In this document: piece by piece, positions 1-31,432 of the stretch
Layout: each line of letters begins with the position of its first letter
Position numbering within the stretch: the first letter of the stretch is position 1
Origin: a virus
DNA: 64,000 nt
Reading direction: 5' to 3' (one strand)
IMG/VR virus record: IMGVR_UViG_3300008262_002626
Location: 1 to 64,000 of that record
The notes under the pieces: model-generated
What the model saw: only the letters and a program-made list of their open reading frames with translations
Database searches by the model: none
Told to the model about the DNA's origin: nothing
Made by a program: the position numbers and the translations under genes

Positions 1-280
1 TTGATTTACGGTCATCGCCTACCGTGTTGCCGTCTCTATTATCTCACCCTGTCGAAACCATGGCAGGCCCATCATAAGAAAACTTAACCTAAATCGTATA
101 GGATACGCCAGTCGGTAGCAGTAAATTTATACATTCCAAAACGCTTACCGCTAGGAAATCTTTTACCGCCATTCAAATAATACAATAATTTAGGTTTCAT
201 CTCAAACTTTCTTATGGTGGACCTGGCGGGAGTCGAACCCGCGTCCAGAATGCCTTCACTTTGAAGGGATTACAACAATT
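1..280 (-). ncRNA. ssrA: Circularly permuted (two-piece) tmRNA gene; acceptor piece ~280-215, intervening segment 214-71, coding piece from 70 running off the window edge
   Basis: Minus strand reads ...GGACGCGGGTTCGACTCCCGCCAGGTCCACCA (T-arm and CCA ending at 215) upstream of GGGCCTGCCATGGTTTCGACAGGGTG (tmRNA 5' end at 70). GGGCCTG/CAGGTCC forms a 7-bp acceptor stem with the G3-U70 alanine determinant; AGGGTG/CATTCT forms helix 2. There is no anticodon arm. Confidence 0.9.
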
Positions 281-349
281 CTATAAAACAAGAAGAACGA
301 CTATAACTACTACAGCAAAGCCTATCAAAAATCTTGTTAGATCATCCAT
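281..349 (-). CDS. 22-aa single-pass membrane micropeptide MDDLTRFLIGFAVVVIVVLLVL
   Basis: Hand-translated; TAATG stop/start overlap with the upstream ORF; hydrophobic. Confidence 0.55.
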   Translation of the reverse strand: MDDLTRFLIGFAVVVIVVLLVL

Positions 350-423
350 TACTTGCGTTTCTTTAAAACTCTGCGAGCTGTTGCCTTAATAGAACGTGGG
401 TGATGTGCCTTCCATTTAGCCAT
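349..423 (-). CDS. 24-aa Lys/Arg-rich peptide MAKWKAHHPRSIKATARRVLKKRK
   Basis: Hand-translated; TAATG overlaps at both ends; paralogous to the next ORF. Confidence 0.65.
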   Translation of the reverse strand: MAKWKAHHPRSIKATARRVLKKRK

Positions 424-491
424 TATTTTCTCCTACGCATCGCTCTGCGAGCTGCCGCTTTTACGCTGTTCTTTTTTGCCTTGTATGCCAT
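423..491 (-). CDS. 22-aa Lys/Arg-rich peptide MAYKAKKNSVKAAARRAMRRRK
   Basis: Hand-translated; AAGGA SD upstream of the ATG; TAAATA box further upstream. Confidence 0.65.
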   Translation of the reverse strand: MAYKAKKNSVKAAARRAMRRRK

Positions 492-609
492 TTTAATTTC
501 CTTTTTTACAAGTGGTGTTTGTATAGTGTATTTAAACATAATTTGGTTAAAAAGTCAATTATTATGGCAAAAACTAAATACTTGTGTTATCAGAGCGGAG
601 CGAATCAAA

Positions 610-891
610 ATGAGCGAAATATTCAAACTTATCGGGGACCTTGGGTTCCCTATTGCTGTAGCCCTATCCGGCGGCTACTTTGTATATCTAACAATCAAAC
701 TACTATTACAAGGCGTACTAGGTTCAATTAACGGTATGAAGGGCATTATTATTGCTCTTGACAATCGTGTTAAAACTATGAACCACGATGTTGTGCGTAT
801 CGATACTATAGTATCTAACGCATTAGGTTTAAAGCCAGATGTAGATCGTATCGCCCGAGCTGATGGTAAGAATGATGCTAGAAGGGATTAA
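610..891 (+). CDS. Small membrane protein (N-terminal GFPI transmembrane segment plus coiled coil; YvrJ/holin-like)
   Basis: Start reassigned to MSEIFK after GGAG SD and TAAATA; LGFPIAVA motif shared with 1365..1769. Confidence 0.6.
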   Translation: MSEIFKLIGDLGFPIAVALSGGYFVYLTIKLLLQGVLGSINGMKGIIIALDNRVKTMNHDVVRIDTIVSNALGLKPDVDRIARADGKNDARRD

Positions 892-1364: not shown

Positions 1365-1769
1365 ATGGATGTAGTAGAGTTAATTAACAAATATGGATTT
1401 CCGATAGTAATGGCTGTCGGCTTAGGTTATATTATCAAGTATGTTTGGGAGTGGGCTACTAAAGAAGTTAAACCTGTTATCAGCGAAGCCAACACAACCT
1501 TAGTCGCCCTGATAGATCGTATTCGTATGTTAGACAATGATTTAATTCGTCTAAACCAAAAGGTCAACACAGTCTTACACCTACGTGGTAAGATTATCGA
1601 AAGTGATCGTGTTATGGAAGCCGTTAAAGTAGAAAGAGAAGCATCACAACGTTTCGATGAAGCAGCCAAACTCGACGACAATAAACCAAAATTTGTCAAG
1701 CGCCGAGATGATATTGCAGATGCTGAAGAAGAAGAAAATAAAAAAACAGCAGCCTCAGGGGAAGGCTAA
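1365..1769 (+). CDS. Small membrane protein (GFPI TM plus coiled coil; YvrJ/holin-like)
   Basis: YGFPIVMA motif; AAGGAG SD; paralog of 610..891. Confidence 0.65.
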   Translation: MDVVELINKYGFPIVMAVGLGYIIKYVWEWATKEVKPVISEANTTLVALIDRIRMLDNDLIRLNQKVNTVLHLRGKIIESDRVMEAVKVEREASQRFDEAAKLDDNKPKFVKRRDDIADAEEEENKKTAASGEG

Positions 1770-1913: not shown

Positions 1914-3122
1914 ATGAAAAAGCGAAATTACACACAAGACACAGTCCGCAAGTTACAAGGCTCATTACAAATTGAGCATACATTAGCAAAACGTGGTGCT
2001 ATCAAACTACGTGAACTACTAGCAAACGAACCATACGTTAACACGCTAGGTGCATACAGTGGACAACAAGCCGTCCAACATGCCAAGGCAGGACTTAAAG
2101 CAATTTATCTATCAGGCTGGCAGGTGGCCGCAGCCGCAAACACAGCAGGACAAACATACCCAGATCAAAGTTTGTATCCTGTAAACTCAGTACCGACAAT
2201 CGTTAAGCAGATTAACAATGCTTTCCGTCGTGCTGATCAAATTGAACATTCAGAAGGCCAAGTAACTACAGATTACTTCTTACCAATCGTAGCTGATGCT
2301 GAAGCAGGCTTTGGTGGTGCATTAAACGCATATGAACTAATGATGGCCATGATTGAAGCAGGTGCAGGTGGTGTACACTTTGAAGATCAGTTATCAAGTG
2401 AAAAGAAATGTGGACACTTAGGTGGCAAGGTTTTAATCCCTACTAGTCAAGCAATACGAAATTTGCAGGCTGCACGGTTAGCCGCAGACGTAGCAGGTGT
2501 TGATACTGTTATCCTAGCACGTACAGATGCCGAGTCAGCAACGCTTATTACCAGCGACCATGATCCACTAGATAAGGATTTTATCATCAATGAACGCACT
2601 GAAGAAGGTTTCTATAAGTTCCGTAATGGATTAGATGCTTGTATTGCTCGCGGGCTTGCTTATGCTCCCTATGCAGATCTACTATGGTTTGAAACTAGTA
2701 CACCTGATATCCAACAGGCCAAGAAGTTCGCAGATGCAATCCACGCACAGTTCCCGGATCAAATGTTGGCTTACAACTGTTCTCCGTCGTTTAACTGGCG
2801 TAAGTTCTTAAGCGAAGAAGAGTGCGAAACATTTCAACATGAACTAGGAGAGCTAGGATACAAGTTCCAGTTCATTACACTAGCAGGTTTCCACTCAGTT
2901 AATCTTGCTACATTTGAACTAGCAGAAGCATACAAGGCACGTGGCATGGCTGGTTATTCAGAAATGCAACAACGTGAGTTTGCCGCACAAGAACGTGGGT
3001 TCACAACTGTTAAACATCAGCGTGAAGTTGGAGTTGGTTATTTTGACTTAATTAGTGAAGCAGTCGGTGCTACCAGTACTGTAGCAAATAAAACTTCTAC
3101 CGAAGCTGATCAGTTCCACTAA
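1914..3122 (+). CDS. aceA: Isocitrate lyase
   Basis: [11 protein letters not shown] catalytic motif, [27 protein letters not shown]. Confidence 0.97.
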
Positions 3123-3132
3123 ATAGTAGACT

Positions 3133-3855
3133 ATGTTTACTATTACTTTCTTGCAGGGTTTGCTGATAACCCTGCTACTCACACATCTTACTATTATCAG
3201 CGTAACCTTGTATCTTCATAGATCACAAGCACATCGTGGAGTAGAGTTTCATCCTTGGCTTAATCATTTTTTCCGTTTTTGGATTTGGTTAACAACAGGT
3301 ATGACTACTAAGGCATGGGTAGCAGTACACCGAAAACACCATCAAACTACAGATGTAGAAGGCGATCCACACAGTCCACATGTATTTGGAATTTGGAAAT
3401 TACTATTTGGTGGCTGGAGTTTATATCATGAAGCTACGAAGGACGCGACCTTTGTTATTAAATATGGAGCCGGAACTCCTAAAGATAAACTTGAAATATT
3501 TTATATGAAGTATCACCGGGCAGGATTCTTGTTGATGTTGGTCATAGACCTTGTTCTTTTTGGCCTGCCTGGTATTCTTATTTGGGGTGTTCAAATGATC
3601 TGGATTCCGTTCTGGGCCGCTGGCTTTATTAACGGTATTGGTCATTGGTGGGGATATCGTAACGGAGACACTAACGACTATAGTCGTAATGTTAGTCCTA
3701 TTGGTATTTTAATCGGCGGAGAAGAACTACATAACAATCATCATTTAGATCCTGCTAATCCTAAATTCAGACGTCGTTGGTTTGAATTAGATATCGGTTG
3801 GATCTATATTAAAATACTAGAAGCTTTAAGACTTGCTACCGTTAGGAGTGCATAG
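3133..3855 (+). CDS. Membrane fatty-acid (delta-9 acyl-CoA type) desaturase
   Basis: His boxes HRSQAH, HRKHH, HNNHH; TM segments. Confidence 0.92.
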   Translation: MFTITFLQGLLITLLLTHLTIISVTLYLHRSQAHRGVEFHPWLNHFFRFWIWLTTGMTTKAWVAVHRKHHQTTDVEGDPHSPHVFGIWKLLFGGWSLYHEATKDATFVIKYGAGTPKDKLEIFYMKYHRAGFLLMLVIDLVLFGLPGILIWGVQMIWIPFWAAGFINGIGHWWGYRNGDTNDYSRNVSPIGILIGGEELHNNHHLDPANPKFRRRWFELDIGWIYIKILEALRLATVRSA

Positions 3856-27327: not shown

Positions 27328-28428
27328 TTAAATTGCTGGTAATTTATCGTAATCAATTACGTCACTCATAACACCAATGACATAATTCGTTGATTCGTTT
27401 TCTTGTAGTGCAGTTTGTTTTTTGCTAGTATCGCTATGTTTATTGAACCACGGAATCGGTGTTGTCTTTGATGCAGAATTCCAGTACTTGATTCCAATGT
27501 CTTTAAGAGCACCAACTGCTGTGTAGTCAACAAAATCTTTTAGAATATTTGCGTTAAGACCGATAACAGGTCCTTTCATAAACAAATAGTCTGCCCATGC
27601 TTTTTCTTCTGCAATGACATCCTTATATATCTGTAAGACTTCTTCTTGACATTCCTGTGCGGCCCTAGCAAAACGTGGATCTTCTTTAACTACTTGATTA
27701 ATTAACCAAGCTGTCCAACCTTTGTGTAGTAGTTCGTCTTGTAGAATTAGGCTGATGATGTTGCCATTACCAATAAAGATCTTGTTCTCAACCATTGCTA
27801 GACTTGTAGCAAATGACACCATAAAGCGGAATGCTTCTAAGGCATAACTCGCATGTAAAGCGAGGTAAATGGCCTTGATATGAATCTCTTCAGGTACCAC
27901 TTCGCCAAGCTCTTTCCTGCTGTTGATGATATGCAGGTCATCATAATAACGTCCAACACTTGATGCCATATCGACAATTTCTTTAGTGTCATGGATTGTA
28001 TTGAATATGTCTTTTGGTACATTGTAAATATTCCGAATAATATGACTGTAACTACGGCTATGAATGTTAGTTTCAAAGAATGTCCAGTTGTAGACCAATG
28101 CTTCTAGTTCTGGAAGACTTACGACCGGAGTAAAGATTTGACTTGGGCCGCGACCTTGCAGACTGTCAAGAGCAGTTTGCCTAAGCAGGTTGCTAGTGAA
28201 GATATGTTTAACTGCATCTGATGCATCCTTAAAATCTTGTGCATCTTTGGTTAGACTAATCTCTTCTGGAACCCAAAAGAAACCCCTAGCTGTCTTTTCA
28301 AAGTCTGCAATCTTGTTATACTTTACTTCTTCAAATCGTTGAATGGTAACTGGGCCCGCTGGATCCAAAAACATTTTACGACTCAAGTAGTCAGTTTTTG
28401 TCTGTAAGTTATATTGTTGTTTGCTCAT
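27328..28428 (-). CDS. nrdB: Ribonucleotide reductase class Ia beta subunit
   Basis: FFWVPEE, ETNIHSRSY, EAFRFMVSF, DELLH, ALQENE; start MSKQ by TAATG overlap. Confidence 0.95.
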   Translation of the reverse strand: MSKQQYNLQTKTDYLSRKMFLDPAGPVTIQRFEEVKYNKIADFEKTARGFFWVPEEISLTKDAQDFKDASDAVKHIFTSNLLRQTALDSLQGRGPSQIFTPVVSLPELEALVYNWTFFETNIHSRSYSHIIRNIYNVPKDIFNTIHDTKEIVDMASSVGRYYDDLHIINSRKELGEVVPEEIHIKAIYLALHASYALEAFRFMVSFATSLAMVENKIFIGNGNIISLILQDELLHKGWTAWLINQVVKEDPRFARAAQECQEEVLQIYKDVIAEEKAWADYLFMKGPVIGLNANILKDFVDYTAVGALKDIGIKYWNSASKTTPIPWFNKHSDTSKKQTALQENESTNYVIGVMSDVIDYDKLPAI

Positions 28429-29084
28429 TAGTAATTTCCTGATGCAAGAACAATCTTGCAAATATGTTCTAATCGTTCTATATGTTCGTAGGCACGCCAA
28501 GGACTAGTATCGATAGCAACTACACCATGTCCTTTGATGCCTACTATATCAAATTTAATATTGCCATCACGATCTAATTGTAACTTCTCGTGACATTGAT
28601 TTCCTAGTTCTTCGGAAATTGGGGGTACGTCACCTACATTCGGAGCAACTTTAGTGTACCGACTAAGCTCTGGAAAATATTGGCAGAGAGTATTCAATTC
28701 GATTCCGGCATGCATAGCCGCAACAGTATAAGTTGGATGCACATGAATCACTACCCGAACGTCGTCCTTGTGTTGTCCCATTTCTTTTTGTAATCCAAAA
28801 TGTAATGGGATCTCTCCAGATGGTCTTAGTTTGGCGCTGATATCAGTATATTGTATATCTTCCCAACTGTAGTTAAATGCGGCACTACCTACACCACTAT
28901 TAATAGTTCTCCAAATTTTAATTTTCTTGAACTGATCAGGTTGTAGTGTTTGCTTACGGACACCGCTAGGTGTAATATAAAAGTGATCACGGTCGTGGTG
29001 ACGAATACTTACATTACCATCACGACTGGTAATCCAATTACGTTGATAAGCATCTTTAAGAACTTCACAAATAGTTTCTAACAT
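28428..29084 (-). CDS. Class II aldolase/adducin family protein
   Basis: DGNVS, ITPSG, PSGEIPLH, HVHP, GHGVV. Confidence 0.88.
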   Translation of the reverse strand: MLETICEVLKDAYQRNWITSRDGNVSIRHHDRDHFYITPSGVRKQTLQPDQFKKIKIWRTINSGVGSAAFNYSWEDIQYTDISAKLRPSGEIPLHFGLQKEMGQHKDDVRVVIHVHPTYTVAAMHAGIELNTLCQYFPELSRYTKVAPNVGDVPPISEELGNQCHEKLQLDRDGNIKFDIVGIKGHGVVAIDTSPWRAYEHIERLEHICKIVLASGNY

Positions 29085-31432
29085 TATAACTTACACGCCT
29101 CACAATCTTCTTCTACCATCTCGACATCGACACTATGCCCATTCATTCCAGCTGTGTGGTATCCGTTAACTTCCGATGCTACTTCGATTGCTTTACTGCC
29201 TGCTTTATTAATTAGGCTGTAGTAGAAAGTCTTAATACCCCATAGCTGTGCTTGCATTAAGTTCTTAGCAATCAGTGTAGTTGGTACTTTGCGCTCTGGG
29301 AAGTGTGCAGGATTATAGAATGTGTTTGTTGAGATACTTTGATCAACATAGACTTGGAGAACAGCCGCTGTTTTTAAATATCCTACACAGTCAGTTTGAT
29401 CCCACATCAATTGATACTTGTTCTTTAGTTTATGATAATCCGGAACAACTTGTGTGAATGATCCTGCCTTAGACTCTTTAGTACTAATAAGGCTCATCGG
29501 CATTTCTATTCCATTTGTACTATTAATAACAACACTACTAGACTCAACTGGAGCAATAGCCATAAGTGTAGCATTTCGTACGCCATGTTCCTTCATCTCC
29601 TTACGTAGTGGTTCCCAGTCAAGCTCTGGTTTAAAGTTTGCTAGTTCGTTTACACCCTTAGCACGGATTTCCCATGGAAATATACCTTGACCATAGCGTG
29701 TCTTATCACTGTCTAAACATTTTCCACGTTCTTTAGCTAGTTCAACCGTTGCTTCTGTTAGATAATAGGCTTGATGCTCCATCCAGCTCTTAACTTCTGC
29801 TAGTGCATCTTTCTCACCATACTTATGACCTCGCTTGGCATGCCAGTAGGCTAGATTAGTTACGCCAATACCCAGTGGTTGAATTTCGTCGTTACTTAAT
29901 TTAGATTGGATGCTAAGAAAGTCTTGGTAATCCAATATATTGCAAAGACTACGCTGAAGTATCCTGCAAGCACGACGCATATCTTCGGGATTACGGAACG
30001 CTCCCCAGTTGATGCTGCCAAGAGTACATAAAGCGATGCGGCCGGAAGGGTCATCGAGGCGCTTAAAACTACGAGTAGGTAAAAGTATTTCACAGCATAA
30101 GTTTGACTGATAGATAGTGTGGTACTCAGGATCAAATGGCCCTTGGTTCATGACATTATCAATGAACACCAGGTAGATGCGACCTGTATCAGTCCTCTCC
30201 TTTAAAATACCACCTTTAAATACATCTTCGGCATTCATCGACTTCTTACGAAGGCCGGCCTGCTTCTCATATTTGACATACAATTTTTCGAATAATTCGG
30301 TGTCTCTGTAAAAGGCTTCGTACAAGTCAGGCACTTCATTAGGATCAAAAAACGTAATGTTTTCTTTATTTTTGAAACGGCGCCAAAAGAATGCTGATAG
30401 CACCACTCCGTAGTCCATGTGACGCACACGAGTTTCTTCAGTTCCTTGATTGTTCTTAAGGACAATGAGGTCGTCAAACTGATGATGCCAAATAGGATAA
30501 AAGACTGTAGCACTAGCGTTACGTATTCCACCTTGACTGCAACTCCTTAAATCTCCAAACCATTTCTTTAGAAATGGGATCATACCAGTATGCATGATCT
30601 CACCACCTCTGATGGGGCTACCTAGTGGACGTAGACGCCCAATCTCCAAACCAATGCCAGCACGTTTGCTGGCATACTTGGCCATCATCTCACCAGAAGC
30701 AAATATGCTATCCAGATCGTCGTCACTGCGGATAAGAACACAACTAGAAAACTGTTTAGTAGGAGTCCCGAGGCCAGCCAACACAGGTGTAGCAAGAGTA
30801 AACAGACCATCTGAAGCACAGTTGTAGTACTCTTTGATGTAACGCATACGGGCCGCATTAGGTTCCTCTTTATGGAATACAGTCGCGGCCGCAACCATAT
30901 AACGAACCTGTGGTGTTTCATAAATTTCCTTTGTCGCACGATTGCGTACCAAATATTTTTCAATCAACTGCTCAATAGCGGCGTACGAGTATGTTTCGTC
31001 TTTTTCGTGATCGATAAACTCGTCCATCTTATTCCAATCATCTTCTGAATACCAGTTTAGCAACTCCGGAGTATATAGACCAATGTCTACATTTCGTTTG
31101 ACAATTTCGTATAGACGAGGAACTTGATAGTCTCCGTACACATCCTTTCGCAACATACTAAGACGTTGTTTGCCTGCTACATATTGATAATTGGTGTGCC
31201 CTACATCTGGATTATGTTCTACATCAATAAGATCAACGATTGCTCTAAGAGTTATTTCGTCGATTTCTCTAGTAGTAATTCCATCATAGAAATGTGGTTG
31301 ACTCTTAATTTCTATCATTGATTGGCTAACGTCGGCAATACCACTGCATACTTTCGCTACCTGAGCTTGCCATTTTTCTACTGCTAGTGGTTCACGCTTT
31401 CCGGATCTTTTAATTACTGTAATGTTATTCAT
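29084..31432 (-). CDS. nrdA: Ribonucleotide reductase class Ia alpha subunit with ATP cone
   Basis: VIKRSG ATP cone, QFSSCV, SNLCCEI, APVESSS, C-terminal CEACKL. Confidence 0.97.
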   Translation of the reverse strand: MNNITVIKRSGKREPLAVEKWQAQVAKVCSGIADVSQSMIEIKSQPHFYDGITTREIDEITLRAIVDLIDVEHNPDVGHTNYQYVAGKQRLSMLRKDVYGDYQVPRLYEIVKRNVDIGLYTPELLNWYSEDDWNKMDEFIDHEKDETYSYAAIEQLIEKYLVRNRATKEIYETPQVRYMVAAATVFHKEEPNAARMRYIKEYYNCASDGLFTLATPVLAGLGTPTKQFSSCVLIRSDDDLDSIFASGEMMAKYASKRAGIGLEIGRLRPLGSPIRGGEIMHTGMIPFLKKWFGDLRSCSQGGIRNASATVFYPIWHHQFDDLIVLKNNQGTEETRVRHMDYGVVLSAFFWRRFKNKENITFFDPNEVPDLYEAFYRDTELFEKLYVKYEKQAGLRKKSMNAEDVFKGGILKERTDTGRIYLVFIDNVMNQGPFDPEYHTIYQSNLCCEILLPTRSFKRLDDPSGRIALCTLGSINWGAFRNPEDMRRACRILQRSLCNILDYQDFLSIQSKLSNDEIQPLGIGVTNLAYWHAKRGHKYGEKDALAEVKSWMEHQAYYLTEATVELAKERGKCLDSDKTRYGQGIFPWEIRAKGVNELANFKPELDWEPLRKEMKEHGVRNATLMAIAPVESSSVVINSTNGIEMPMSLISTKESKAGSFTQVVPDYHKLKNKYQLMWDQTDCVGYLKTAAVLQVYVDQSISTNTFYNPAHFPERKVPTTLIAKNLMQAQLWGIKTFYYSLINKAGSKAIEVASEVNGYHTAGMNGHSVDVEMVEEDCEACKL

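What the first reader, a model, noticed from the sequence alone, without database searches (positions are those of the whole stretch)
281..491. Three translationally coupled micro-ORFs upstream of tmRNA, two resembling tiny basic ribosomal peptides
Seen, but missed by the ORF track: MAYKAKKNSVKAAARRAMRRRK and MAKWKAHHPRSIKATARRVLKKRK share MA..K....S.KA.ARR....RK. They are followed by a 22-aa TM peptide, all joined by TAATG overlaps, with an AAGGA SD and leading directly into ssrA. Established: eL41, bS22 and bTHX are ~25-30-aa Lys/Arg-rich peptides that bind rRNA pockets. Inference: these are phage ribosome-binding peptides (or SmpB-tail mimics) co-expressed with tmRNA; nucleic-acid-condensing peptides are the alternative.
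Basis: partly seen in the sequence, partly recalled or inferred. Interest (0 to 1): 0.7.

Follow-up and report, generated by a model that had tools for sequence, protein, structure and literature searches.

The report
Tiny basic-peptide genes leading phage tmRNA
Three real, conserved micro-genes (two tiny positively charged peptides and one tiny membrane peptide) are built into the front end of the transcript that makes a lake phage's two-piece ribosome-rescue RNA (tmRNA), so this stable-RNA precursor also serves as a messenger; what the peptides do, and whether they touch the ribosome, remains untested.

Summary
Observation confirmed. On the minus strand, three ORFs (491-423, 423-349, 349-281) are joined by TAATG overlaps. 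The first has an AAGGA Shine-Dalgarno, and the last stops 3 nt before a stable RNA.

That RNA is a circularly permuted two-piece tmRNA, cut off by the contig start.

The two basic ORFs belong to an unannotated family that appears phage-restricted:
- 44 distinct peptides of 21-35 aa in 53 viral loci.
- Clear purifying selection (pS 0.67 vs pN 0.15), seen only in the called frame.
- No detectable relation to ribosomal proteins, SmpB or ArfA.

The membrane ORF belongs to a family found both in tmRNA leaders and inside tmRNA spacers.

A conserved sigma-70-type promoter lies upstream and no terminator intervenes, so the pre-tmRNA probably doubles as a polycistronic mRNA.

The tmRNA link is frequent but not obligatory. 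When the peptides are searched for independently, the MAYRAK type precedes a tmRNA in 13 of 16 informative loci. The MAKFKAHH type does so in 7 of 21 and otherwise precedes iscU.

The function is most likely nucleic-acid binding by an Arg-rich helix. This is inferred; ribosome binding is untested.

The scan had already found micro-genes in phage tmRNA spacers on other DNA. The basic leader family is new to it.

The parts
530..558 (-). Sigma-70-type promoter with extended -10: TTGACT (558-553), 17-nt spacer ending TG-T (TG at 538-537), TTAAAT (535-530)
   Evidence: Read from the sequence. The same TTGAC(A/T)-17-TG-T-TTAAAT architecture stands upstream of the first gene of the csp/micro-ORF/tmRNA unit in 13 of 97 distinct loci on the sense strand, against 1 on the opposite strand. 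Promoter activity is inferred.
499..503 (-). Shine-Dalgarno AAGGA of ORF1, 7 nt before the ATG
   Evidence: Sequence.
423..491 (-). ORF1: 22-aa basic micro-protein, subtype B1 (MAYKAKKNSVKAAARRAMRRRK), stop 425-423
   Evidence: Homologs include MAYRAKNGSVKAAARRALRRRQK (L047) and MAYRAKKNSPKATVRRVLRRRKG (L037), among others. Against these, pS is 0.82-0.85 and pN 0.13-0.17.
349..423 (-). ORF2: 24-aa basic micro-protein, subtype B2 (MAKWKAHHPRSIKATARRVLKKRK), stop 351-349; its AGGAG SD lies inside ORF1's last codons
   Evidence: Against the L046 homolog, pS is 0.56 and pN 0.09, with no such signal in shifted frames. 14 distinct B2 sequences were found.
281..349 (-). ORF3: 22-aa single-pass membrane micro-protein (MDDLTRFLIGFAVVVIVVLLVL), stop 283-281
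   Evidence: Family members occur in leaders (L030, L045, L049, L102) and inside tmRNA spacers (L010, L021, L024, L041, L104, L116). The DDLTRFLxGF motif is kept through 4 synonymous against 1-2 non-synonymous codon changes.
300..328 (-). Sigma-70-like match TTGATA-17-TATAGT inside ORF3 (possible alternative tmRNA start)
   Evidence: 10 of 12 matches. Such matches are common in this AT-rich DNA (7 found, 3.0 expected). Not conserved in relatives; uncertain.
215..277 (-). tmRNA acceptor piece (T-arm, 3' acceptor strand, encoded CCA ending at 215)
   Evidence: RF04321, RF01850. The exact 32-mer at 246-215 is shared by more than 118 viral contigs, and nearly all with enough downstream sequence are called permuted tmRNA by ARAGORN.
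71..214 (-). Intervening segment (spacer) removed on maturation, closed by a stem; carries a 38-aa ORF at 200..84 (MKPKLLYYLNGGKRFPSGKRFGMYKFTATDWRILYDLG)
   Evidence: The ORF starts 14 nt after CCA behind TAAGAAAG, the positional equivalent of TAAGGAG/TAAGGAAG in relatives. The protein is conserved in six other contigs, both inside tmRNA spacers (L168, L170) and free-standing (L166, L167, L169, L171).
1..70 (-). Start of the tmRNA coding piece (GGGCCTG acceptor strand onward), cut off by the contig end; tag not recoverable
   Evidence: match truncated at the 3' end. The window begins at base 1 of the contig. ARAGORN finds nothing for this reason.

Best explanation
The three ORFs are genuine micro-genes forming a modular cassette in the 5' leader of a phage tmRNA precursor.

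A host-type (sigma-70, extended -10) promoter at 558-530 starts one transcript. It is translated as ORF1-ORF2-ORF3 by coupled initiation (shared TAATG; ORF2's SD lies inside ORF1). It then continues without a terminator into the permuted tmRNA gene: acceptor piece, spacer with a fourth micro-gene, then coding piece. tRNA-type processing releases the two tmRNA pieces. The parts that are discarded for tmRNA, the leader and the spacer, are the messengers.

ORF1 and ORF2 are paralogous subtypes (B1, B2) of an unannotated family that appears phage-restricted. Its members are 21-35 aa Lys/Arg/Ala-rich peptides. The conserved core, K-[ST]-V-K-A-x-A-[KR]-R-[AV]-x-[KR][KR][KR], is predicted to be an amphipathic helix. 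They most likely bind nucleic acid, probably RNA, in the manner of arginine-rich-motif peptides, early in infection. ORF3 is a tiny single-pass membrane peptide.

The cassette is a mobile passenger on strongly expressed units (tmRNA leader, tmRNA spacer, iscU operon). It is not a proven cofactor of trans-translation.

Shown: coding status, paralogy, family spread, coupling signals, tmRNA identity, position, alternative contexts.
Inferred: the single transcript, the timing, nucleic-acid binding.
For: Anatomy:
- ORF coordinates and overlaps; SD sequences.
- Permuted tmRNA starting 3 nt after ORF3's stop.
- No terminator-like site in 1-1000.

Coding status:
- pS 0.67 against pN 0.15, p 2e-22, in the called frame only.
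- ORF3's motif is kept through synonymous changes.

Family:
- 44 distinct peptides in 53 loci, with subtypes B1 (14), B2 (14), B3 (7) and others (9), in tandem arrays of 1-4.
- A profile search of 1.84 billion representative proteins finds only the family itself.
- The two subtype DNA patterns give 0 hits in 185,579 prokaryote species genomes, against 22 and 24 viral contigs.

Position:
- In relatives the last leader ORF ends 3-11 nt before the acceptor piece.
- The promoter box is conserved and strand-specific.
- Relatives without leader ORFs instead have TTGACA/TATAAT directly at the acceptor piece.
- RNA-library contigs of relatives run from the acceptor piece into the end of their leader TM ORF (weak evidence).

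Modularity:
- The same peptides precede iscU-iscA.
- TM families occur in both leader and spacer.
- 61% of spacers of 70 nt or more are filled by an ORF with a canonical SD right after CCA, against 33% coverage in shuffles.

Helix: the AlphaFold model of the 35-aa member has its core in a helix at residues 22-34, mean pLDDT 80.
Against: - There is no direct expression data for this phage. RNA contigs laid on the window covered only the conserved tmRNA pieces.
- A sigma-70-like match inside ORF3 (328-300) could drive the tmRNA separately from the ORFs.
- Nucleic-acid binding rests only on composition and a predicted helix.
- The B1 subtype precedes a tmRNA in 13 of 16 informative, independently found loci. 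That is more than a pure 'passenger' model predicts, unless it reflects inherited gene order.
- Many loci are near-identical metagenome variants, so counts are not independent.
Confidence: 0.6

Rival explanations
1. Dedicated trans-translation or ribosome factors. The basic peptides would bind the ribosome, for example the empty mRNA channel as SmpB, ArfA or ArfB tails do, or an rRNA pocket as bTHX or bS22 do. Alternatively they would bind and stabilise the two-piece tmRNA. Being made in cis with the tmRNA would keep supply matched.
For: - They lie directly upstream of and co-oriented with the tmRNA. B1 does so in 13 of 16 independently found informative loci, and sometimes it is the only protein gene in a tRNA-Trp/tmRNA/tRNA unit.
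- An RNA-chaperone gene (csp) often heads the same unit.
- No SmpB is found in the 91-kb fragment, so the phage tmRNA would otherwise depend on host factors (the fragment is only about 20% of the genome).
- The core is a basic helix.
Against: - No sequence relation to any ribosomal protein, SmpB or ArfA.
- B2 precedes iscU in 14 of 21 distinct loci.
- Contig G002 has B2 at iscU while its tmRNA stands elsewhere with its own promoter and no leader ORFs.
- The tmRNAs that share this window's spacer gene (L168, L170) have no leader cassette.
- Cultured phages with permuted tmRNA (XacN1, QDWS595) have no such ORFs.
Confidence: 0.2
2. DNA-binding or condensing peptides (protamine-like), acting on the host nucleoid or on packaged phage DNA.
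For: About 42% Lys+Arg on average across the 44 distinct family peptides, almost no acidic residues, very small size. The phage is large (the fragment is estimated at 20% of the genome), and charge neutralisation could matter in such a genome.
Against: - The promoter is of the host sigma-70 type rather than a late type (inferred timing), which does not suit a packaging role.
- The conserved, position-specific core with a nearly invariant Arg speaks for a specific contact rather than bulk charge.
- The neighbours are RNA genes and Fe-S genes, not structural or packaging genes.
Confidence: 0.1
3. Regulatory leader ORFs. The act of translating them (ribosome traffic ending 3 nt before the acceptor piece) would gate folding or processing of the pre-tmRNA, and the peptide products would be incidental.
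For: - The stop of the last leader ORF always lies 3-11 nt from the acceptor piece, so a terminating ribosome would cover its first bases, which pair with the coding piece.
- In spacers, the SD and stop are embedded in the closing stem.
Against: - Strong purifying selection on the amino-acid sequences.
- The same peptides are conserved in front of iscU, where no RNA maturation is at stake.
- Many related tmRNAs have no leader ORFs.
Confidence: 0.07
4. Chance ORFs in a non-coding tmRNA leader.
For: They are shorter than gene callers accept, and no database annotation exists.
Against: Conservation in 53 loci, frame-specific selection, SD sequences and coupled starts.
Confidence: 0.02

Closest known systems
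Phage-encoded two-piece (permuted) tmRNA genes of aquatic myophages, e.g. OM43 phage Melnitz and pelagimyophages (PMC9004378)
   Same: Permuted ssrA carried by an aquatic phage, placed behind an early-type promoter. The downstream RNA here meets RF04321 and RF01850.
   Different: That paper describes a glutamine riboswitch in ssrA and no protein genes in the leader or spacer. Here the tmRNA is of the betaproteobacterial type and its leader carries three translated micro-genes. No T4 capsid or portal hallmark was found in this fragment.
Micro-genes inside phage tmRNA spacers, found earlier by this scan on other genomes (e1-5370117, e1-5734071, e1-5319932 and others)
   Same: The same principle: a part of the pre-tmRNA that is discarded serves as a messenger, and the slot is swappable. 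I saw it independently here. ORF3's family occupies both spacer and leader.
   Different: Those findings concern the spacer. The present cassette is in the 5' leader, is polycistronic, and brings in a basic-peptide family not noted before.
Arginine-rich-motif (ARM) RNA-binding peptides, e.g. the N-terminal ~20 residues of lambda, P22 and phi21 N proteins (own knowledge)
   Same: About 20 residues, rich in Ala, Arg and Lys, helical, phage-encoded, early. There is a local A-R-R-A type core.
   Different: N-protein ARMs are the tips of ~100-aa antiterminators and bind a defined boxB hairpin. Here the peptide is the whole protein and no RNA target is identified. The resemblance comes from recall and composition, not from a test.
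Very small basic ribosomal proteins (bTHX, bS22, bL34, bL36, eL41) and phage-encoded ribosomal proteins such as bS21 (own knowledge)
   Same: Size and charge. Phages are known to carry some ribosomal protein genes.
   Different: No profile or sequence match at permissive thresholds, even against all PDB ribosome chains. The patterns are absent from prokaryote genomes.
ArfA, a small basic-tailed rescue factor whose mRNA is truncated by RNA processing and which is controlled by tmRNA (own knowledge)
   Same: A small basic protein whose message ends at an RNA-processing site, in the orbit of trans-translation. Here ORF3's stop lies 3 nt from the expected processing site.
   Different: There is no sequence similarity. 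ArfA needs RF2-binding parts that a 22-aa peptide lacks. The basic ORFs are not the last in the leader, so processing would not truncate them.

Membership tests
Circularly permuted two-piece tmRNA (Rfam RF04321; betaproteobacterial type RF01850), for the RNA the ORFs lead into | Covariance-model match above the gathering score, with the acceptor piece (T-arm, CCA) preceding the 5' acceptor strand | tested here: met
   RF04321 106.4 bits (cut-off 47) and RF01850 103.1 bits (cut-off 84), with the order acceptor piece 277-215, spacer, coding piece from 70.
Circularly permuted two-piece tmRNA | Tag reading frame ending in a proteolysis tag | not testable with these tools
   The coding piece is cut by the contig start. 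Relatives encode tags such as ANDEQFALAA or 27-31-aa tags.
Small basic ribosomal proteins (bL34, bL36, bS21, bTHX, bS22, eL41) | Significant sequence or profile similarity to the family | tested here: not met
   No Pfam or NCBIfam hit for the two basic peptides at E<=10. The family profile against all PDB chains finds only designed helical repeat proteins.
Small basic ribosomal proteins | Physical association with the ribosome | not testable with these tools
   Needs co-sedimentation or cryo-EM.
SmpB C-terminal tail / ArfA-type mRNA-channel probes | Sequence similarity to SmpB (PF01668) or ArfA | tested here: not met
   No hit. No SmpB in the 91-kb contig.
New basic micro-protein family (B family) of large freshwater phages | 21-35 aa, about 40% Lys+Arg, core K-[ST]-V-K-A-x-A-[KR]-R-[AV]-x-[KR][KR][KR], own SD and ATG, under purifying selection | tested here: met
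   Alignments A1 and A2. ORF1 and ORF2 score E 2e-7 and 5e-9 against the family profile. Selection test; census.
Arginine-rich-motif RNA-binding peptides | Short basic helix | tested here: met
   Composition. The predicted helix covers the conserved core.
Arginine-rich-motif RNA-binding peptides | Specific binding to an RNA hairpin | not testable with these tools
   No target was identified; needs binding assays.
tmRNA-associated membrane micro-peptides (ORF3 type) | 22-24 aa, acidic N-terminus, x-G-F/V motif, hydrophobic run ending L-[IV]-L-[LF], located in a tmRNA leader or spacer | tested here: met

The most novel reading that the evidence does not exclude
The basic micro-proteins are phage-made cofactors of ribosome rescue, produced in cis from the tmRNA precursor. 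They would be free-standing ~22-aa helices that either occupy the vacant mRNA channel or an rRNA pocket of stalled ribosomes, or clamp the two tmRNA pieces together. Either way they would tune or redirect trans-translation during infection.
Probability: 0.15. Interest if true: 0.85.

Novelty: new variant of a known kind. Interest (0 to 1): 0.5.

Why it matters
Peptides this small (21-24 aa) fall below gene-caller limits. That explains why a family present in dozens of phage contigs is essentially absent from a library representing about 15 billion predicted proteins.

The locus adds a second way in which a stable-RNA precursor doubles as a messenger. Besides the spacer, a polycistronic 5' leader ends 3 nt from the mature RNA. 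This raises testable questions about how translation and tRNA-type processing share one molecule.

If the peptides turn out to act on ribosomes or tmRNA, they would be the smallest known trans-acting factors of ribosome rescue and a new phage takeover tool. If they do not, they are still a clean example of modular micro-gene 'passengers' moving between highly expressed slots (tmRNA leader, tmRNA spacer, iscU operon).

Tried and rejected
- ARAGORN on the window found nothing, because the tmRNA is cut by the contig end.
- Pfam, PHROGs and NCBIfam on all four micro-proteins at E<=10 gave nothing. The one exception is a meaningless 12-bit daptide hit for ORF3.
I used degenerate DNA patterns instead.
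- tblastn of B2 and B3 against 50,697 cultured phage records gave no match; the low-complexity filter may contribute.
- Protein atlas: best score 0.83, in the range of shuffled sequences, with HTH-type leads only. Discarded.
- RNA runs: four freshwater metatranscriptomes laid on 1-1400 covered only the conserved tmRNA pieces, and the contigs came from relatives. There was nothing on 283-700, so there is no expression evidence for this phage's ORFs either way.
- The recurring 'MPKVL...' ORF upstream in relatives is the wrong frame of a cold-shock protein gene.
- The 'MKIPGMSDLL...' membrane ORF after B2 in iscU loci is the wrong frame of IscU's HYENPRNVGSF segment. Both were rejected as genes.
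- A degenerate pattern for ORF3's N-terminus found no viral contig.
- The GTTTAAATA box is only mildly enriched in the window (4 against 1.6 expected). The promoter argument rests on conservation across loci.
- T4 capsid and portal hallmark searches found nothing in the fragment, and their controls did not ring either, so they are uninformative.
- No complex prediction was run, because I do not claim a specific protein partner.

Full report
**What is there**

The three ORFs lie on the minus strand exactly as described.
- ORF1 is 491..423 (MAYKAKKNSVKAAARRAMRRRK).
- ORF2 is 423..349 (MAKWKAHHPRSIKATARRVLKKRK).
- ORF3 is 349..281 (MDDLTRFLIGFAVVVIVVLLVL).

Neighbouring ORFs share one base, which gives the TAATG overlaps. 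ORF1 has AAGGA 7 nt upstream. ORF2's AGGAG is made of ORF1's own Arg codons.

Three bases after ORF3's stop, Rfam places the start of a circularly permuted, two-piece tmRNA gene of the betaproteobacterial type (RF04321 106 bits, RF01850 103 bits).
- The acceptor piece is 277-215, with an encoded CCA.
- A 144-nt spacer is 214-71.
- The coding piece runs from 70 off the contig start.

ARAGORN misses this gene only because it is truncated. The window starts at base 1 of a 91-kb viral contig estimated to be about 20% complete. The contig recurs in freshwater and lake metagenomes.

**Are the ORFs real genes?**

The exact 32-mer of the acceptor T-arm occurs in more than 118 viral contigs. Nearly all of those with enough downstream sequence are called permuted tmRNA by ARAGORN. 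In a subset, the bases just upstream encode peptides clearly homologous to ORF1, ORF2 and ORF3.

I compared equal-length homolog pairs codon by codon. Pooled synonymous divergence was 0.67 and non-synonymous divergence 0.15 (Fisher p 2e-22). The two shifted frames show no such contrast. For ORF3, the N-terminal motif DDLTRFLxGF is kept through 4 synonymous and 1-2 non-synonymous codon changes. The ORFs are therefore protein-coding.

**The families**

The basic peptides form a multi-subtype family. I found 44 distinct sequences of 21-35 aa in 53 loci, averaging 42% Lys+Arg.
- Subtype B1 starts MAYRAK; ORF1 belongs here.
- Subtype B2 starts MAKFKAHHPRS; ORF2 belongs here.
- Subtype B3 starts MPSPRRVSQILKGKK and is 33-35 aa.
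- Several further subtypes exist.

They occur in tandem arrays of one to four genes. The shared core is K-[ST]-V-K-A-x-A-[KR]-R-[AV]-x-[KR][KR][KR], with one nearly invariant Arg. AlphaFold, using the family alignment, predicts this core as a helix (residues 22-34 of the 35-aa member, mean pLDDT 80).

The family is essentially unannotated.
- A profile search of 1.84 billion representative proteins returned four true hits, all the same micro-proteins, plus one spurious repeat protein.
- Cultured phages gave no tblastn hit.
- The two subtype DNA patterns occur in 22 and 24 viral contigs but in none of 185,579 prokaryote species genomes.

ORF3 belongs to a family of 22-24-aa single-pass membrane peptides. 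Its members lie either in tmRNA leaders or inside tmRNA spacers.

**Transcription unit**

No terminator-like site lies between the ORFs and the tmRNA.

Upstream of ORF1 is TTGACT (558-553), a 17-nt spacer ending TG-T, then TTAAAT (535-530). This is an extended -10, sigma-70-type promoter. The same architecture precedes the first gene of the unit in 13 of 97 distinct related loci on the sense strand, against 1 on the opposite strand.

In many relatives a cold-shock protein gene heads the unit, in the order csp, micro-ORFs, tmRNA. In relatives the last leader ORF ends 3-11 nt before the acceptor piece, which leaves no room for a separate promoter. Relatives without leader ORFs have a canonical TTGACA/TATAAT promoter directly at the acceptor piece.

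In RNA libraries, contigs from relatives run from the acceptor piece straight into the end of their leader membrane ORF. This is weak evidence, because these are contigs and DNA carry-over is possible.

The single transcript is therefore well supported by anatomy but not shown directly. A sigma-70-like match inside ORF3 (328-300) could provide an independent tmRNA start in this phage.

**The wider pattern**

The spacer of these phage tmRNA genes is also a gene slot. Of 70 distinct spacers of at least 70 nt, 61% carry an ORF that covers at least 60% of the spacer. Mean coverage is 58% against 33% in shuffles. The ORF starts a fixed 9-14 nt after CCA, behind TAAGGAG or TAAGGAAG. The cargo ranges from 19-aa membrane peptides to a complete thioredoxin (L050, and L128 by inspection).

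The window's own spacer ORF (200..84, 38 aa) is conserved in six other contigs. Two of them have it inside tmRNA spacers and four as a free-standing small gene.

The scan had already reported spacer micro-genes on eight other phage genomes. My result agrees with those reports and extends the idea to the 5' leader. In the literature I could search:
- The 2025 tmRNA database paper mentions only a tRNA and a repeat element inside intervening sequences (PMC11915505).
- The Melnitz paper describes phage two-piece tmRNA without leader or spacer genes (PMC9004378).

**Is the cassette tied to tmRNA?**

Only partly. I searched for the peptides independently of the tmRNA, then combined ARAGORN with a direct acceptor-piece detector.
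- B1 precedes a tmRNA in 13 of 16 informative distinct loci, sometimes with tRNA-Trp between them. It precedes iscU in the other 3.
- B2 precedes a tmRNA in 7 of 21 and iscU-iscA in 14.

One contig has B2 at iscU and its tmRNA elsewhere, with its own promoter and no leader ORFs. The two tmRNAs that share this window's spacer gene have no leader cassette. Cultured phages with permuted tmRNAs (XacN1, QDWS595) have no comparable ORFs.

The cassette thus behaves as a mobile module with two favoured docking sites. In both it sits immediately upstream of, and co-oriented with, a highly expressed unit.

**What the peptides are not**

There is no Pfam, NCBIfam or PHROG match for the basic peptides at E<=10. 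The family profile finds no ribosomal protein, SmpB or ArfA among all PDB chains, only designed helical repeats, which merely echoes helix propensity. The likeness to bTHX, bS22 or eL41 is one of size and charge only.

**Most likely function**

My best reading is that B1 and B2 are early-expressed, arginine-rich helical peptides that bind nucleic acid, probably RNA, and ride on strong transcription units. ORF3 is a tiny membrane peptide of unknown role. I put about 0.6 on this overall; the coding and anatomy parts are much firmer than the function.

Rivals:
- Dedicated ribosome or tmRNA cofactors: 0.2.
- DNA condensation: 0.1.
- Purely regulatory leader translation: 0.07.
- Chance ORFs: 0.02, effectively refuted.

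**Verdict**

The ribosomal-peptide part is neither supported by homology nor excluded by experiment.

It is a new variant of a known kind: phage two-piece tmRNA operons, and micro-genes on pre-tmRNA. It brings with it an undescribed basic micro-protein family. Interest is moderate (0.5), and would rise sharply if ribosome or tmRNA binding were shown.

Noticed in passing
window 84-200 (minus strand): The tmRNA spacer carries a 38-aa ORF (MKPKLLYYLNGGKRFPSGKRFGMYKFTATDWRILYDLG) that starts 14 nt after the encoded CCA. The protein is conserved in six other viral contigs: two inside tmRNA spacers (L168, L170) and four as a free-standing small gene with ATGA-type overlaps (L166, L167, L169, L171).
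   Followed up: partly
L050 and L128 (tmRNA spacers): A complete thioredoxin-like gene (82-84 aa, MKILKFYADWCGPCKML...) sits inside the spacer of a permuted tmRNA. ARAGORN misses the tmRNA in L128 because of the long spacer.
   Followed up: partly
L148, between the leader cassette and the tmRNA: A 210-aa ORF starting MFYTVYKTTNLINGKIYVGLH is inserted between the leader micro-ORFs and the tmRNA. It looks like a GIY-YIG homing endonuclease by its motif, but I did not test this. A 199-aa Cys-rich ORF is similarly inserted before iscU in L140 and L150.
   Followed up: no
Related loci L009-L117 (ARAGORN tags): Many phage permuted tmRNAs encode unusually long tags of 23-31 aa, such as ANADTFDFSAMSFTGNTVSGKSKVALAA and ANANTFKFMQVDFDISAMNDEEFAIAA. 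The usual length is about 10 aa, as in ANDEQFALAA.
   Followed up: no
L013, L034, L037, L046, L065 and others, upstream of the tmRNA: A cold-shock protein gene (MATGKVKWFNETKGFGFITP...) directly heads the micro-ORF/tmRNA unit in many relatives. The window has only the promoter there.
   Followed up: partly
L129, L137, L146 and others (iscU start) compared with window 474-491: The first 18 nt of the B1 genes (ATGGCATATAGAGCTAAA, MAYRAK) closely resemble the start of the phage iscU genes (ATGGCATATAGCGATAAA, MAYSDK): 15 of 18 bases. This could be a recombination seam or a shared optimal start.
   Followed up: no
window 1914-3122 and 3133-3855 (plus strand): The phage carries an isocitrate lyase (PF00463, E 3e-101) followed by a fatty-acid desaturase (PF00487, E 4e-18). 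Class I ribonucleotide reductase subunits lie at 27331-31432.
   Followed up: partly
window 610-891 and 1365-1769 (plus strand): Two divergently transcribed small proteins share an N-terminal membrane segment (…LIGDLGFPIAVAL… and …LINKYGFPIVMAVGL…) and a following coiled region. They look like paralogs and have no Pfam family.
   Followed up: no
AP018399.1 37.2 kb (L164) and OK149171.2 55.3 kb (L165): Cultured phages XacN1 (Xanthomonas) and vB_Af_QDWS595 (Alcaligenes) carry permuted tmRNA genes (tags ANANTFDYALAA and ANDNVYAAAA). No feature is annotated over them in the fetched stretches of those records.
   Followed up: partly
L004, L033, L051, L116, L068 (leaders); L030, L088, L104: Two further membrane micro-protein families recur around phage tmRNAs. 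One has a TM segment plus W-x-MDWHDKFPDGE (about 31-36 aa). The other has a TM segment plus YDW-x-KFEED...DFLKPYE (about 41-44 aa). The latter is found in both leader and spacer.
   Followed up: no
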